A stretch of 4,491 nucleotides of DNA, from the IMG/VR virus record IMGVR_UViG_2671180979_000013, one strand, 5' to 3'. Position numbers and translations under genes: made by a program. The notes beneath the pieces were generated by a model, which did no database searches, was not told the DNA's origin, and saw only the letters and a list, made by a program, of their open reading frames with translations. The stretch is from a virus. Taxonomy: Duplodnaviria > Heunggongvirae > Uroviricota > Caudoviricetes. Below are positions 1 to 4,491 of the stretch, in pieces (the first letter of the stretch is position 1; each line of letters begins with the position of its first letter).

Positions 1-1184
1 CGGTCCTTCAGGGCGCTGAAGCTGTAGCGAAACCCCACGCCGTTATCATCCACCACCACATCGCTGTTGGTGTACGGCCACACCACATCCGACGGGCGGT
101 CCTGAACGAACGTCAGCGTCTGACCGTTCCATACCGGCATACAGCGCATCGCCGAGCAGAAATCACTGAGAACATCCCACGCCTTACGCTGTTGTGCCAG
201 GTACGCATTGAAGGTCATCCGCGGCTCGGTGCCCCCGAAGCCATCCGGCACCATCTGGTCGCAGTACTGCCCGATGGCATACAGCGCCCACTTGTCCACA
301 TCCGCCGCCCCCAGACGTTTTCCCATGCCGTAGCGCGGGTGAGTCAGCATGTCCCACAGGCACCAGGCAGGGTTGTTGCTGTATGCCGGTTTCAGGCTGC
401 CGTCCCAGATGCCGCTGTAAGTGCGTTTTTCCGGGTCATAGTTTGACGGTACCTGGATGATGCGACCGCGGATATGGTAGTTCACCGTCATCTGCTGACC
501 GCCAAACTGCTCCGCATCCACCTGCAGCCCCACAATCGCCGTGTTCGGGTAGCACTGTTTCACATCGATGATTTCGGTGTATGACGACCAGAGCGTCTTA
601 TTCTGCAACTGGTCCGTGGTGCTGTCCGCTGTCTCCCGGACCATCCGGATGTTAAAAGGACGGGGAGGCAGATTATCCAGAATCACCGACGCCAGGTACT
701 GTGAGGTGGTCTTGCCGTTAATGGTGACATCCTTTTCCGTCATCCATTTACCACCACGCTCAAGCTGAATCAGCAGGCGGACAGACGTCGGGTTACGGTC
801 ACCCTTTGAGGTGGTCTCCACCAGTGACTGCACCCCGAAGGTAACCCGCAGGCGGTCAATGTTCGCGGACGTAATGGTGCGCGTTACCGGCTTTGCCTTC
901 GTCACTTCCACGCCCAGTCCGGTTTCAGCTCCGGAGGACTCAAAGCCTTCCGGTGGTGTCTGCTCCTGCTCCCCAGCGCGCCAGACCGCGGTCACACCGT
1001 GTATCACAGGATTGCCGTCCGTGTCCGTCAGCGGGGTTTTGTTCACCAGGATACTCTGCAGCCCCTTCACCGGGCCTTCTATCGGTCCCTCACCAATCGC
1101 ATCAATCACACTCATCATCTGCGTGGATTTGAGATTGTCCTTCGCCTCGCGCGGTGTGTGCGCCTTGCCGCCACCTTTGCCCAT
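1..1184 (-). CDS. J: Host specificity / tail tip protein J, N-terminal ~394 codons; 3' end lies beyond the window start
   Basis: ATG at 1184..1182 on the minus strand, preceded by AAAGGGTGAG. My translation begins MGKGGGKAHTPREAKDNLKSTQMMSVIDAIGEGPIEGP...SNNPAWCLWDMLTHPRYGMGKRLGAADVDKWALY...CSAMRCMPVWNGQTLTFVQDRPSD, which matches the lambda gpJ N-terminus as I recall it. The frame stays open to position 1. Absent from the ORF track because no stop falls inside the window. Confidence 0.9.
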   Translation of the reverse strand, partial: MGKGGGKAHTPREAKDNLKSTQMMSVIDAIGEGPIEGPVKGLQSILVNKTPLTDTDGNPVIHGVTAVWRAGEQEQTPPEGFESSGAETGLGVEVTKAKPVTRTITSANIDRLRVTFGVQSLVETTSKGDRNPTSVRLLIQLERGGKWMTEKDVTINGKTTSQYLASVILDNLPPRPFNIRMVRETADSTTDQLQNKTLWSSYTEIIDVKQCYPNTAIVGLQVDAEQFGGQQMTVNYHIRGRIIQVPSNYDPEKRTYSGIWDGSLKPAYSNNPAWCLWDMLTHPRYGMGKRLGAADVDKWALYAIGQYCDQMVPDGFGGTEPRMTFNAYLAQQRKAWDVLSDFCSAMRCMPVWNGQTLTFVQDRPSDVVWPYTNSDVVVDDNGVGFRYSFSALKD

Positions 1185-1212
1185 TGTCTCACCCTTTACT
1201 GTGATAACTGTT

Positions 1213-1247
1213 ACGCACAAAAACAACAGGCATCCCGGAGGATGCCT
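1213..1247 (-). terminator. Perfect 9-bp stem / 4-nt loop hairpin followed on the minus strand by TTGTTTTTGTG; intrinsic-terminator-like, about 28 nt upstream of the J ATG
   Basis: Plus strand 1226..1247 is caggcatcc-cgga-ggatgcctg, a perfect inverted repeat. On the minus strand it is followed by ttgtttttgtgcg (plus 1225..1213). Function not demonstrated. Confidence 0.3.
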
Positions 1248-1286
1248 GCATCATGACGGAATAAAACTTCTGAATATCTTCACATT

Positions 1287-1315
1287 TTCACAAACTGACT
1301 GTGGTGCTAATAATT
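1287..1315 (+). promoter_or_regulatory. Candidate sigma70-like promoter on the plus strand, antisense to the tail operon
   Basis: TTCACA at 1287..1292, then a 15-17 nt spacer, then TAATAAT at 1308..1314. Each hexamer matches consensus at about 4 of 6 positions. It sits inside the AT-rich island, so chance matches are likely. Confidence 0.2.
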
Positions 1316-1387
1316 TCTCTGCGTTAATGTTTTTTTGCCCGAGCACCAGAAACAAAAATAACTCCTTAACGTTAATCTTTGTCTGTC

Positions 1388-1420
1388 CCCGCAACTCTGC
1401 GGGATTGTTTTATTCTTTTT
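1388..1420 (+). terminator. Plus-strand intrinsic-terminator-like hairpin with a T-rich tail
   Basis: cccgca (1388..1393), loop actc, tgcggg (1398..1403), then attgttttattcttttt (1404..1420). The T-tract overlaps the complement of the I stop codon. On the minus strand the A-tract precedes the stem, so it is not a terminator for the tail operon. Confidence 0.3.
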
Positions 1421-2099
1421 ACCCCTGCCGCCCGATAACCACAACCTTTCCGCCACCGCCTTCATCACGGGTACTGATGTCCTGGGATATCCGTCGTGAA
1501 CCAACCAGCATTTCACCATAAGGCACCGGCATCGGGTTACCCTGGGCAATCATATTGTCCAGTGAGGAAAAATACGTGTTCTGTTTACCGTTATCCGTTG
1601 CGCGGTAATCCGGTGTTTTTGCCTTCGGTGCCAGCATCTGGGCCACACCGCCCAGTATCATGCTAGCCCCCAGTGAAAACAGCATCGTGGTGGCAGAAAA
1701 ACCACCGGCTGCCAGGGCTGAACCCCATAACGCCATTGATGCCCCGGCCGTGAAGAACGACCCCACGATGGCCGCCGCCCCCAGCACAATCTGCAGTCCG
1801 CCCTTTCCGGCTCCGACCAGTCGCGGCACAATATGGATGACCGCCCCCTCACCCAGAGGTTCGTGAAGACGGGCGTACACCGCCTCCGGTGCCGTGTCCT
1901 CACCGCGAATACGTATCTGGTACCAGCCTTCGTTCATCTGACGGCGAAAGCCCGGCATCTGCATCGACAGGGCACGGATGGCTTCCGCTGCCGTGTTCAC
2001 GTACAGGCTGAGGCGGCGGCCAAATCGTTGCAAATCCCCGTGAAGGCAGATGCGTGCCAGTGGCGGTGACGCCAGACAGAATGCGTTCGTCGTTGCCAT
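1419..2099 (-). CDS. I: Tail assembly protein I (gpI-like), 226 aa
   Basis: Complete ORF in the track. The N-terminus MATTNAFCLASPPLARICLHGDLQRFGRR..., the tract HIVPRLVGAGKGG (Gly-Gly at residues 100-101), a Gly/Ala-rich hydrophobic segment, and the C-terminal NGKQNTYFSSLDNMIAQGN...GEMLVGSRRISQDIST match lambda gpI as I recall it. A GGGAGAGG Shine-Dalgarno-like motif lies upstream of the ATG. The start overlaps the K 3' end by 103 nt. Confidence 0.92.
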   Translation of the reverse strand: MATTNAFCLASPPLARICLHGDLQRFGRRLSLYVNTAAEAIRALSMQMPGFRRQMNEGWYQIRIRGEDTAPEAVYARLHEPLGEGAVIHIVPRLVGAGKGGLQIVLGAAAIVGSFFTAGASMALWGSALAAGGFSATTMLFSLGASMILGGVAQMLAPKAKTPDYRATDNGKQNTYFSSLDNMIAQGNPMPVPYGEMLVGSRRISQDISTRDEGGGGKVVVIGRQG

Positions 2100-2740
2100 T
2101 TTTCAGAATACCTCTCCCGTTTACTCAGTTGTTCAGGCAGATGGTGAAGCAGCTCACCGTTGCCGCAGTATATGGCGGCATGATTGGCCACCGATGCGCC
2201 AAAGCAGCACAGCAGAATATCGCCCGCCTGTGCAGAGGACAGGGGCACCCGGTAAAAGCCGGTGACCGCCATATTGTCCAGGTACAGGTTCTGGCCGTTG
2301 CGCCACCAGTCATCCTCACGCTCAAAATCCGGCATATCAATTCCCGCCAGATGGTAGGCATCCCGGAACAGCGTGTAACAGTCCGTCACCCCGTGCGCAA
2401 AGCGCCGTCCCGTCAGGTGCGGCACACAGCGGAATTTATGAATGTCCCCCCGGCAGACCAGCCACCAGGACAGTGCACTTTTTATCTGCAGCCGCCGGTC
2501 GGCCTCGCTCAGCCAGGGCAGACCACCGGGATGACTGTGGACCAGTGCCACAATCTCCCCCTGCATCTCTGCCCGCAGCCAGTCTTCCGGTGCAATACGA
2601 AAATACGCCTCCGGCTCTGCAGAGATATTCACACAAGGGATATACCGCTCCCCCTCCGGCGTTCTCACCACGAAGCCGCACGACTCCGCAGGCGCACACC
2701 GCCGGGCATGCGCCAGAATCGCTGATTCAGTCTGTGTCAT
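1997..2740 (-). CDS. K: Tail tip assembly protein K (gpK-like) with JAMM/MPN and NlpC/P60 motifs, 247 aa
   Basis: Start taken at the internal ATG 2740..2738 (MTQTESAILAHARRC...), 10 nt after the L stop; the 334-aa track ORF runs further upstream into L in another frame. The JAMM motif H-S-H-x7-S-x2-D is intact (HSHPGGLPWLSEAD; HSH encoded at 2539..2531). An NlpC/P60-like Cys (GVTDCYTLF, C121) and His (ANHAAIYCG, H187) are present. An unusually long lambda-like N-terminus is implied; a later start cannot be excluded. Confidence 0.85.
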   Translation of the reverse strand: MTQTESAILAHARRCAPAESCGFVVRTPEGERYIPCVNISAEPEAYFRIAPEDWLRAEMQGEIVALVHSHPGGLPWLSEADRRLQIKSALSWWLVCRGDIHKFRCVPHLTGRRFAHGVTDCYTLFRDAYHLAGIDMPDFEREDDWWRNGQNLYLDNMAVTGFYRVPLSSAQAGDILLCCFGASVANHAAIYCGNGELLHHLPEQLSKRERYSEKWQRRTHSVWRHRHWHASAFTGICNDLAAASACT

Positions 2741-2750
2741 AAAACAGGAT

Positions 2751-3449
2751 TTACTGCGAAAGTTTATTGATGGAAAGGAAACCGCCAAAATTAGCCACCA
2801 TGCCGCGCATCTCACACCCGCGCATGCACTTGCTGCATCTGTCCTTACGGATATCCGTGGTGGGTTTATCGAACTCATCCGCCACAGCCCCGCCCGTGTA
2901 ACCACACTCATCAGAGCGGTAGGTCCACATACAGGTGTTCGCCAGCATGATACGACCGGGAAACAGCGCTCCGTCCGTCTCCGTCGGTGTTGCCAGCACA
3001 AACGAGGCTGTCATGGCCGTCAGCTCTGACATCTGCTCCACCACCCAGCGGTCGCTCAGCTCCTGCTCCGGGTCCGCTTCCGGATTGCCCGCCACAAAAT
3101 TCACCGCATCCAGAAAACGGGCATACACCCGGCGGCGGACCACCGTGGCCCCCACCAGGCTCTGCAGGTCCTCCGCCATCCCGGTGACCAGACCAAACAG
3201 ATTGGACACCGTCAGCGACGGTCTGGCACTGCTGCCCTTCCCGTTCATCTCAAAACCGCTGCCGTCAATCGGGTATGCCTGATATTGCCGCCCCTGCCAG
3301 GTGACCGGCTCCCCTTTTTCATTCAGCTCATTACAGAAAAAATACCGCTCACCGCCCTGCACCGTCAGGTCAATTTCCCAGAGCACCACCCGCGGTGACT
3401 GCTCTGATTTAACCGACTCGTTCAGACTTTCTTCGTGAATATCCTGCAT
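2751..3449 (-). CDS. L: Tail tip protein L (gpL-like), 232 aa, full length
   Basis: Start at ATG 3449..3447 (MQDIHEESLNE...), overlapping the M stop as ATGA. The first 9 codons of the track ORF 2751..3476 are an upstream extension into M. The C-terminus ...CSKCMRGCEMRGMVANFGGFLSINKLSQ and the conserved tracts VVLWEIDL, GGERYFFCNE, PVTWQGRQYQ and FPGRIMLANTC match lambda gpL as I recall it. Confidence 0.92.
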   Translation of the reverse strand: MQDIHEESLNESVKSEQSPRVVLWEIDLTVQGGERYFFCNELNEKGEPVTWQGRQYQAYPIDGSGFEMNGKGSSARPSLTVSNLFGLVTGMAEDLQSLVGATVVRRRVYARFLDAVNFVAGNPEADPEQELSDRWVVEQMSELTAMTASFVLATPTETDGALFPGRIMLANTCMWTYRSDECGYTGGAVADEFDKPTTDIRKDRCSKCMRGCEMRGMVANFGGFLSINKLSQ

Positions 3450-3475
3450 CAGTTCACCACCTGCTCTATCGTGCA
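2847..3475. repeat. Direct repeat copy A (629 bp): 5' 603 bp of L plus the 3' end of M
   Basis: Hand alignment to 3863..4491 at a constant offset of 1016 bp gives about 26 substitutions and no indels, roughly 96% identity. Confidence 0.9.
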
Positions 3476-3790
3476 ACTGAAATCACTGTACCGGGCATTA
3501 TCCGTGACACTCCACTCACGGCACACAACCCTCACCGTCCGGTTATGTTTCGGCGGTCGCCACAAAAAGGCACGGTAACCACCATGCCACGATAAAAACT
3601 CTTCCAGCCAGCGCCGGGTTGACTCATCCGTCACCCGGAACACCGCCTGAAACGTCTTCAGTTGAGGATTCAGCCCTGTGGGGCGGCGCTGTTCATAACC
3701 GTCACCAAACCGCACCCTCACCACCGACGGCTTCTCACTCACCTGCATCCCTTCACGCGGGACCAGATGCAGCGTTTTTATCTCAGCCAC
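3449..3790 (-). CDS. M: Minor tail protein M (gpM-like), 113 codons, GTG start
   Basis: The C-terminus ...FSCTIEQVVN and the internal VRFGDGYEQR and WHGGYRAFLW tracts resemble lambda gpM. The start codon is GTG at 3790..3788 (checked by hand), preceded by GGAGG with an 8-nt spacer. An in-frame TGA lies immediately upstream of the GTG, so no longer N-terminus is possible. Confidence 0.8.
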   Translation of the reverse strand: MAEIKTLHLVPREGMQVSEKPSVVRVRFGDGYEQRRPTGLNPQLKTFQAVFRVTDESTRRWLEEFLSWHGGYRAFLWRPPKHNRTVRVVCREWSVTDNARYSDFSCTIEQVVN

Positions 3791-3862
3791 TCAGCATTCC
3801 TCCGTCACGTCGCATGGACAGCATCACCGCCTGCACCCGCTGGTCAATCAGCTGCACAAGAA
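3783..3862 (-). other. Orphaned 3'-terminal fragment (about 26 codons) of the gene upstream of M; by lambda gene order this would be the tape measure gene H
   Basis: A minus-strand frame reads ...LVQLIDQRVQAVMLSMRRDGGMLSG* with its TGA at 3785..3783, overlapping the M GTG start (GTGGCTGA). The frame is closed by a stop at 3893..3891, and sequence similarity to copy A ends at 3862/3863. Identification as H is by position only. Confidence 0.4.
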
Positions 3863-4465
3863 ACGGATATCCGTGGTGGGGTTGTCGAACTCATCCGCCA
3901 CAGCCCCGCCCGTGTAACCACACTCATCAGAGCGGTAGGTCCACATACAGGTGTTCGCCAGCATGATGCGACCGGGAAACAGCGCTCCGTCCGTCTCGGT
4001 CGGTGTAGCCAGCACAAACGAGGCCGTCATGGCTGTCAGCTGCGACATCTGCTCCACCACCCAGCGGTCACTCAGCTCCTGCTCCGGGTCCGCCTCCGGA
4101 TTGCCCGCAACGAAATTCACCGCATCCAGAAAACGGGCATACACCCGGCGGCGGACCACCGTGGCCCCCACCAGGCTCTGCAGGTCCTCCGCCATTCCGG
4201 TGACAAGGCCAAACAGATTGGACACCGTCAGCGACGGTCTGGCACTGCTGCCCTTCCCGTTCATCTCAAAGCCGCTGCCGTCAATCGGGTACGCCTGATA
4301 TTGCCGCCCCTGCCAGGTGACCGGCTCCCCTTTTTCATTCAGTTCATTGCAGAAAAAATAGCGCTCACCGCCCTGCACCGTCAGGTCGATTTCCCAGAGT
4401 ACCACACGCGGTGACTGCTCTGACTTAACCGACTCGTTCAGGCTTTCTTCGTGAATATCCTGCAT
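3848..4465 (-). pseudogene. Truncated second copy of L (L'): 202 gpL codons plus 3 unrelated codons (FLCS) and a stop
   Basis: 205-aa track ORF. Residues 1-202 differ from the L copy at 2751..3449 at only 2 positions (E to Q, K to N). The sequence diverges completely after ...PTTDIR, at plus coordinate 3862/3863. The start ATG 4465..4463 overlaps the stop of an upstream M copy as ATGA. Confidence 0.75.
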
Positions 4466-4491
4466 CAGTTCACCACCTGCTCTATCGTGCA
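3863..4491. repeat. Direct repeat copy B (629 bp, runs to the window edge): L' plus the 3' end of a second M
   Basis: Same alignment as copy A. Similarity ends sharply at 3862/3863; plus 3857..3862 caagaa does not match 2841..2846 gtcctt. Confidence 0.9.
4465..4491 (-). CDS. 3' end (last 8 codons plus stop) of a second M copy; the rest lies beyond the window end
   Basis: The reverse complement of 4468..4491 encodes CTIEQVVN followed by TGA (4467..4465), identical to the C-terminus of M at 3449..3790. Confidence 0.5.
   Translation of the reverse strand, partial: CTIEQVVN

What the first reader, a model, noticed from the sequence alone, without database searches (positions are those of the whole stretch)
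3783..3870. Sharp breakpoint fuses L codon 202 to the last ~26 codons of the upstream-gene frame
Similarity between the copies ends exactly between plus positions 3862 and 3863. On the minus strand the L' frame continues for only 3 codons (F-L-C-S then TGA at 3850..3848). A different frame then encodes ...QRVQAVMLSMRRDGGMLSG* and ends overlapping the M GTG start, as expected for the 3' end of the gene that normally precedes M. The junction is therefore a clean illegitimate join inside two coding sequences.
Basis: partly seen in the sequence, partly recalled or inferred. Interest (0 to 1): 0.4.

Follow-up and report, generated by a model that had tools for sequence, protein, structure and literature searches.

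The report
Scaffold gap mistaken for recombination junction
The "sharp breakpoint" sits exactly on a one-letter gap (an N in the public record, shown as A in the window) where assembly software stitched two separate pieces of a draft genome together, so it is an assembly artefact and not a recombination event.

Summary
Lambda-like tail genes lie on the minus strand. A 629-bp second copy of L (codons 1-201, 96% identical to the intact L) abuts the last 25 codons of the tape-measure gene H, followed by M-L-K-I-J'. But the window is an entire 4,491-bp contig of a short-read draft assembly (CYCT01000156.1, GCA_001286285.1). Its only difference from the deposited record is position 3862, which is N in the record and A in the window. 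That base lies between the end of H homology (3861) and the start of L homology (3863) and matches neither parent. In a sister assembly of the same accession series, a lone N replaces 25 real bases, so here a lone N marks an unclosed scaffold gap. The junction is absent from 5,426 complete E. coli genomes, from the best-matching records among 50,697 phage records, and from the viral, metagenome and species-representative genome collections. A sister contig that is 99.87% identical runs straight on into H. The two L copies differ at 26 sites, 25 of them third codon positions, so they are alleles from two different prophages and not a recent duplication. Verdict: not a real feature. The short L-allele contig from a second lambdoid prophage was scaffolded onto the end of the main contig.

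The parts
1..1184 (-). 5' part of J (tail tip/host specificity), 395 codons, cut by the contig end
   Evidence: in L008 (this contig) the gene at 3308-4491 hits PF24801 FNIII-A_GpJ and PF13550. Sister contig L007 breaks at the same J position.
1419..2099 (-). I (tail assembly protein), 226 aa by the longest ORF; annotated as 193 aa in some records
   Evidence: PF06805 Lambda_tail_I.
1997..2741 (-). K (JAB/NlpC-P60 tail peptidase), 247 aa; coordinates approximate to within a few bases
   Evidence: the 247-aa gene in L008 hits PF14464 and PF00877.
2751..3449 (-). Intact L (minor tail protein L), 232 aa, allele A
   Evidence: PF05100 Phage_tail_L, and the exact protein is found on 15 contigs. One search shows the C-terminus with the Cys-rich tail.
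3449..3790 (-). M (minor tail protein), 113 aa, GTG start
   Evidence: PF05939 Phage_min_tail.
3783..3861 (-). 3' end of tape-measure gene H (1 nt + 25 codons + TGA); this is the end of assembly piece 1 (window 1..3861)
   Evidence: 100% identical to the intact H-M locus L001. L007 continues into H from here; the peptide ...LVQLIDQRVQAVMLSMRRDGGMLSG* equals the C-terminus of intact H in L002 and L007.
3862..3862 (.). Scaffold gap: N in the deposited record CYCT01000156.1, rendered as A in the window
   Evidence: it is the only difference between the window and the record; the base matches neither flanking parent; a lone N in sister contig L006 replaces 25 bases.
3863..4491 (-). Assembly piece 2: 26 nt of the M 3' end plus L codons 1-201 of a different allele (B). 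It is a separate short contig from a second lambdoid prophage.
   Evidence: 26 mismatches in 629 bases to allele A; 25 of the 26 fall on third codon positions of the L frame (my arithmetic on the positions); 1929 complete genomes hold it in the ordinary M-L context; 118 of 119 viral contigs sharing its 26-mer continue as normal L.

Best explanation
The junction is an assembly artefact: a scaffolding join. The window is a whole contig of a short-read draft genome, presumably E. coli, carrying at least two lambda-like prophages with similar tail genes. Piece 1 (1..3861) is one prophage's H(3' end)-M-L-K-I-J'. Piece 2 (3863..4491) is a 629-bp contig holding the divergent stretch of the L gene of another prophage. 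It could not be merged with piece 1 because it differs from it by 4%. Scaffolding and gap-closing software linked the two pieces, presumably through read pairs that fall in sequence shared by the prophages, and left a single N between them. INSDC records keep such a short N run inside a 'contig'. Preparation of the window turned N into A, which created an apparently continuous sequence and a spurious L'-FLCS* reading frame. What is shown: the N, the uniqueness of the junction, the normal continuation of both arms in relatives, and the meaning of a lone N in this assembly series. What is inferred: which program made the join and why the pieces were linked.
For: (1): the window is the reverse complement of CYCT01000156.1 (4491 bp, GCA_001286285.1) apart from one position, 3862, which is N in the record. 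A single N landing by chance on the one base between the two homology blocks has odds of about 1 in 4491. (2): H homology ends at 3861 and L homology starts at 3863. Base 3862 matches neither, and there is no microhomology. (3): in L006 (CYAQ01000086.1, same accession series) a lone N replaces 25 bases present in L001, L002 and L003, so a lone N here stands for an unclosed gap. (4): 0 of 5426 complete E. coli genomes have the two arms adjacent, and 1921 genomes carry the locus as about 3861 bp without the duplication; the best phage records span about 3865 bp, with no duplication; the junction 26-mer is absent from the genome, viral and metagenome collections. (5): sister contig L007 is 99.87% identical to 1..3861 (5 mismatches) and continues uninterrupted into H. 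(6): the copies differ at 26 of 629 sites, 25 at third codon positions. That divergence built up in two functional L genes, so these are alleles from different phages and not a recent in-situ duplication. (7): allele-B-like L always continues as ordinary L. (8) PMC5320598: in a widely used Velvet+SSPACE+GapFiller pipeline, contigs joined by read pairs get a gap of N, and these greedy tools 'can lead to false joins'. PMC3446322: a gap is closed only if the two extensions overlap, and gaps left open are mostly in repeats.
Against: I could not see the reads or the assembly's methods, so the program and the read-pair links are inferred. A simple model of a variant branch would place piece 2 parallel to 2847-3475, not upstream of H, so I cannot reconstruct why the scaffolder chose this order. 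I tested whether piece 2 rejoins sequence identical to piece 1 just beyond its ends, and the result was inconclusive. No close relative of allele B exists in the collections (at least 19 mismatches in 629), and identical runs beyond the end were only 26-77 nt. A scaffold link can reflect true adjacency.
Confidence: 0.9

Rival explanations
1. The two pieces really are adjacent. The strain would carry a hybrid or partly duplicated tail module (M-L'(1-201)...H'(3' end)-M-L) made by illegitimate recombination between two different lambdoid phages or prophages, and the N hides a short stretch that could not be assembled.
For: Scaffolders join contigs only when read pairs link them (PMC5320598). Both arms are in the same orientation, as a tandem arrangement requires. 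The 4% synonymous divergence fits two different parental phages. Many STEC and EPEC genomes hold up to 17 such loci that could recombine.
Against: A real junction would produce unique reads, and a de Bruijn assembler or gap closer would read through it instead of leaving an N (closure rule in PMC3446322). No related genome, phage or metagenome contig has the arrangement. The near-identical sister contig L007 has intact H at this position. Both arms stop at points where relatives simply continue.
Confidence: 0.07
2. There is a recent in-situ tandem duplication of a 1016-bp unit (H 3' end + M + L 1-201) within one prophage, and the N is just one ambiguous base call.
For: The repeat is direct with a period of 1016 nt, and the contig ends inside the second M copy, as a collapsed tandem repeat would cause.
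Against: The copies are 4.1% divergent, with 25 of 26 differences at synonymous third positions. A truncated, non-functional copy could not accumulate that pattern after duplication. A lone N in this assembly series has been shown to hide 25 bases. The N falls exactly on the breakpoint. The junction is unique.
Confidence: 0.02
3. A chimeric library fragment or read (a ligation or PCR chimera) was incorporated by the assembler.
For: The join is abrupt, lacks microhomology, and is unique to this assembly.
Against: A chimeric read would give real bases across the join, not an N. Single chimeric reads are normally removed by coverage cut-offs (general knowledge, not tested).
Confidence: 0.01

Closest known systems
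Scaffold misjoin or unclosed single-N gap in short-read draft assemblies (for example Velvet/SSPACE/GapFiller-type pipelines; PMC5320598, PMC3446322)
   Same: There is an N exactly at the join. Both flanks are genuine sequence that continues normally in relatives. The region is a multi-copy prophage repeat, where such tools leave gaps or make false joins. A sister assembly shows a lone N hiding 25 bases.
   Different: I could not confirm which pipeline produced GCA_001286285.1. The order of the two pieces is not what a simple bubble placement predicts.
Bacteriophage lambda tail-tip gene cluster H-M-L-K-I-J
   Same: Gene order, sizes and Pfam families match (Tape_meas_lam_C, Phage_min_tail, Phage_tail_L, Prok-JAB/NLPC_P60, Lambda_tail_I, GpJ domains). 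H and M overlap by 8 nt, M and L by 1 nt, and K and I overlap. About 94-96% DNA identity to Stx-converting and other E. coli lambdoid prophages.
   Different: Nothing of note once the artefactual L' arm is removed. The I-J spacer is about 235 bp and AT-rich, compared with about 60 bp in lambda (the lambda figure is from my own knowledge).
Genuine illegitimate or mosaic recombination junctions between lambdoid prophages (as in EHEC O157 Sp prophages)
   Same: It involves paralogous lambdoid tail modules of a few percent divergence in one genome.
   Different: Genuine junctions are sequenced through and are often shared by related strains. This one has no sequence across it and occurs nowhere else.

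Membership tests
Assembly scaffold join (artefact) | Undetermined base(s) N at the exact join in the deposited record | tested here: met
   window 3862 A is N in CYCT01000156.1, and it is the only difference in 4491 bases.
Assembly scaffold join (artefact) | In this data series, a lone N stands for a gap of unknown length and not for one ambiguous base | tested here: met
   the lone N in L006 (CYAQ01000086.1) replaces 25 bases present in L001, L002 and L003. H is called as 1072 aa instead of 1080 aa.
Assembly scaffold join (artefact) | Each flank continues collinearly past the join in related genomes, and the joined arrangement is found nowhere else | tested here: met
   (H continues in L001 and L007). 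(L continues in 118 of 119 viral contigs). (junction absent elsewhere).
Assembly scaffold join (artefact) | No sequencing read spans the join | not testable with these tools
Assembly scaffold join (artefact) | The short piece is a variant branch that rejoins sequence shared with the main contig at both ends | tested here: inconclusive
   the piece has 18 nt and 49 nt identical to copy A outside its outermost SNPs; the nearest relatives stay identical to piece 1 for 26-77 nt beyond, but no close relative of allele B is available.
Biological illegitimate-recombination junction or tandem duplication in a prophage | Continuous determined sequence across the novel joint | tested here: not met
   there is an N at the joint.
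Biological illegitimate-recombination junction or tandem duplication in a prophage | For a recent duplication, the copies are (near-)identical | tested here: not met
   26 differences in 629 bases, 25 at third codon positions.
Biological illegitimate-recombination junction or tandem duplication in a prophage | The joint recurs in related isolates or other records | tested here: not met
   none found. Sister contig L007 has the intact arrangement.
Lambda-like tail tip module (H, M, L, K, I, J) | Ordered genes with the family-specific Pfam domains | tested here: met
   One search gives precomputed Pfam hits for L008 and its relatives. Searches give the annotation of matching phages and prophages.

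The most novel reading that the evidence does not exclude
The scaffold link reflects true adjacency. The isolate would then carry a hybrid lambdoid tail module in which a truncated L from one phage (lacking its Cys-rich C-terminal 31 residues) is joined, across a few unsequenced bases, to the last 25 codons of another phage's tape-measure gene. That would be a one-off illegitimate recombinant between co-resident prophages.
Probability: 0.07. Interest if true: 0.2.

Novelty: not a real feature. Interest (0 to 1): 0.03.

Why it matters
Biologically it does not matter. Once the join is removed, the window is an ordinary lambda-like tail-tip gene cluster plus a stray allele fragment from a second prophage. 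It does matter for the scan itself. Replacing N with a real base (here A) in the input hides scaffold gaps and produces 'clean breakpoints', fused frames and false truncated proteins. Windows from draft assemblies should keep or flag their Ns. Any breakpoint that falls on an orphan base matching neither parent should be checked against the source record first.

Tried and rejected
(1) I searched for the junction elsewhere. The searches were a 261-bp query across it against 5426 complete E. coli genomes, the whole window against E. coli genomes and 50,697 phage records, and the exact 26-mer in genome contigs, viral contigs and metagenome contigs. None found it. (2) An exact look-up of the 205-aa L' product found nothing. 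This was later explained: the record has X at codon 202. (3) Junction microhomology: there is none, and the question is moot given the N. (4) A gapped alignment to extend copy similarity past 3862 gave no extension. (5) My first attempt at the variant-branch flank test was mis-registered by one base and I discarded it. The corrected run was inconclusive because no close relative of allele B exists in the collections. (6) Literature searches for the assembly accession and for an explicit statement of the single-N convention of SSPACE or GapFiller found neither. My recollection that SSPACE inserts a single 'n' when the estimated gap is not positive and no overlap is found remains unverified memory, and I do not use it as evidence. 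(7) Rfam found no RNA family in the window.

Full report
ANATOMY. The window carries lambda-like tail-tip genes on the minus strand. Reading from 4491 downwards:
- 26 nt of an M 3' end
- L' (4465..3848, 205 codons)
- the last 25 codons plus stop of the tape-measure gene H (3861..3783)
- M (3790..3449, GTG start, 8-nt overlap with H)
- intact L (3449..2751, 232 aa)
- K, then I (2099..1419)
- an AT-rich spacer of about 235 bp
- the first 395 codons of J (1184..1)

Precomputed Pfam hits for this contig and its relatives confirm the families: Phage_min_tail, Phage_tail_L, Prok-JAB/NLPC_P60, Lambda_tail_I, GpJ domains and Tape_meas_lam_C. The closest phage records are Stx-converting and other E. 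coli lambdoid phages at about 94-95% identity. The best E. coli chromosomes reach 95-96%.

CHECK OF THE OBSERVATION. A direct repeat with offset 1016 pairs 2847-3475 with 3863-4491, with 26 mismatches in 629 bases. Ungapped identity collapses immediately to the left, and a gapped local alignment does not extend it. That peptide is identical to the C-terminus of intact H proteins in relatives L002 and L007. An intact H-M locus (L001, O157:H7 PV15-279) matches window 3780..3861 at 100% and then continues with different sequence. L homology begins at 3863. Base 3862 (A) matches neither parent: H has C and intact L has T. The coordinates are therefore right to within one base, and the 80-bp segment is indeed the 3' end of H.

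WHAT IT REALLY IS. Looking up the intact L protein by exact sequence returned a 4,491-bp contig, CYCT01000156.1 of draft assembly GCA_001286285.1. It has the same gene layout, including the 205-codon ORF (locus L008). It is the reverse complement of the window except for one position: window 3862 is N in the deposited record. The window is therefore a complete contig of a draft assembly, and the 'sharp breakpoint' is a one-N gap between two assembled pieces, 1..3861 and 3863..4491. This also explains why the 205-aa product is not in the protein collections: the record's product has X at codon 202. The window has no non-ACGT letters, so the N was evidently turned into A when the window was prepared.

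A lone N could in principle be a single ambiguous base call within continuous sequence. Two results argue against that. First, the only N in 4,491 bases falls on the only base that separates the two homology blocks. Second, a sister contig from the same accession series (L006, CYAQ01000086.1) also has a lone N, inside H. There the N replaces 25 bases that are present in three relatives, and H shrinks from 1080 to 1072 codons. In this series a lone N is a placeholder for an unclosed scaffold gap of unknown size.

INDEPENDENT SUPPORT.
(i) No place in 5,426 complete E. coli genomes covers at least 80% of a 261-bp query centred on the join; all matches stop at window 3861. In the whole-window search, 1,921 genomes carry the locus, but as about 3,861 bp without the duplicated arm. 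The best phage records likewise span about 3,865 bp.
(ii) The junction 26-mer is absent from the species-representative genome, IMG/VR and metagenome collections.
(iii) Sister contig L007 (CYEV01000136.1) is identical to window 1..3861 except for 5 bases and runs straight on into H for 443 codons.
(iv) The arm 3863-4491 lies in an ordinary M-L context in 1,929 complete genomes. Of 119 viral contigs sharing an allele-B-specific 26-mer next to the join, 118 continue as normal L and none continues into H.
(v) The two L copies differ at 26 sites. By my arithmetic on the positions, 25 of these are third codon positions of the L frame, giving only two amino-acid changes (E/Q and K/N). That pattern arises in functional genes under purifying selection. 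The arm is therefore an allele from a different prophage, not a decaying recent duplicate.

MECHANISM. This part is inferred. Genomes of this kind hold many lambdoid tail loci, up to 17 places per genome. Short-read assemblers collapse the identical parts and leave divergent stretches as separate short contigs. A scaffolder then linked the 629-bp allele-B contig to the H end of the main contig through read pairs that fall in shared sequence. The gap closer could not merge the two ends, so one N remained. The literature supports the generic steps. In the Velvet+SSPACE+GapFiller pipeline, contigs joined by read pairs receive a gap of Ns, and the greedy tools 'can lead to false joins' (PMC5320598). 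GapFiller closes a gap only when the left and right extensions overlap, and the gaps it leaves are mostly in repeats (PMC3446322). I could not establish which pipeline produced this assembly. I also cannot reconstruct why the piece was placed upstream of H and not parallel to 2847-3475. A test of whether allele B rejoins piece-1 sequence just beyond its ends was inconclusive for lack of a close relative (one search was a mis-registered run and is discarded).

RIVALS. True adjacency, meaning a real hybrid or partial duplication with a short unsequenced stretch, cannot be excluded without the reads. It is unlikely, at about 7%. A real joint yields unique reads that assemblers traverse, no relative has it, and the near-identical sister prophage is intact. 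A recent in-situ tandem duplication is contradicted by the synonymous divergence. A chimeric read would have produced bases, not an N.

COMPARISON WITH THE KNOWN, AND NOVELTY. With the join removed, the window is a standard member of the lambda H-M-L-K-I-J tail-tip module plus a stray fragment of a paralogous L allele. The 'feature' belongs to the known class of scaffold joins and misjoins in repeat-rich draft assemblies. It is not a real biological feature.

VERDICT. The gene assignment is correct. The biological interpretation as an illegitimate recombination joint is not supported. Interest is 0.03. The one useful lesson is procedural: N-to-base substitution in the input hides scaffold gaps.

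Noticed in passing
window 3862: The window shows A where the public record (CYCT01000156.1) has N. Input preparation apparently replaces N by a real base, which hides scaffold gaps and creates false reading frames (here 'F' at L' codon 202).
   Followed up: yes
window 1185-1418: The I-J spacer is AT-rich (40% GC against 58% for the window), and relatives keep a spacer of similar length (about 240 nt in L002). It holds a strong terminator-like hairpin on the coding (minus) strand at 1249..1226 followed by a T-run, about 40 nt upstream of the J start. It also holds a plus-strand terminator-like site at 1388-1403 and a plus-strand promoter-like site at 1287-1314. There is no Rfam match. It could be a regulatory element or a small moron between I and J.
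   Followed up: partly
L006 position 4440 (CYAQ01000086.1, GCA_001277535.1): A lone N inside the tape-measure gene replaces 25 bases (TGATCCGTATCAGGAGGCGAGACAA) that are present in L001, L002 and L003. H is called as 1072 aa instead of 1080 aa. This is the same artefact class in a sister assembly.
   Followed up: yes
window about 859-1521 (+ strand); L008 2971-3633 and L007 3594-4256: Gene callers place a 220-aa ORF with no Pfam hit antisense to the J start and the I-J spacer. It is probably a spurious call in GC-rich antisense sequence.
   Followed up: no
Viral-contig loci L014-L133: One of 119 viral contigs sharing the allele-B 26-mer continues with unrelated sequence (…CCGCAATCCGCTTTTCCGAGAACCAGAACTCAAACTGTAT) in place of the L 3' end. 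It could be a real mosaic joint or another assembly break within L.
   Followed up: no
window 1 and L007 end (J codon 395): This contig and sister contig L007 both break at exactly the same position in J. This suggests a shared repeat boundary (the point where J alleles of co-resident prophages converge) that fragments these assemblies.
   Followed up: no
window 2751-2846 (L codons 202-232): The part of L missing from the stray arm includes the Cys-rich C-terminal tail (…KDRCSKCMRGCEMRG…). From my own knowledge, lambda gpL relatives use C-terminal cysteines to bind an iron-sulfur cluster. A truly truncated L' would lack this region. I did not test this.
   Followed up: no
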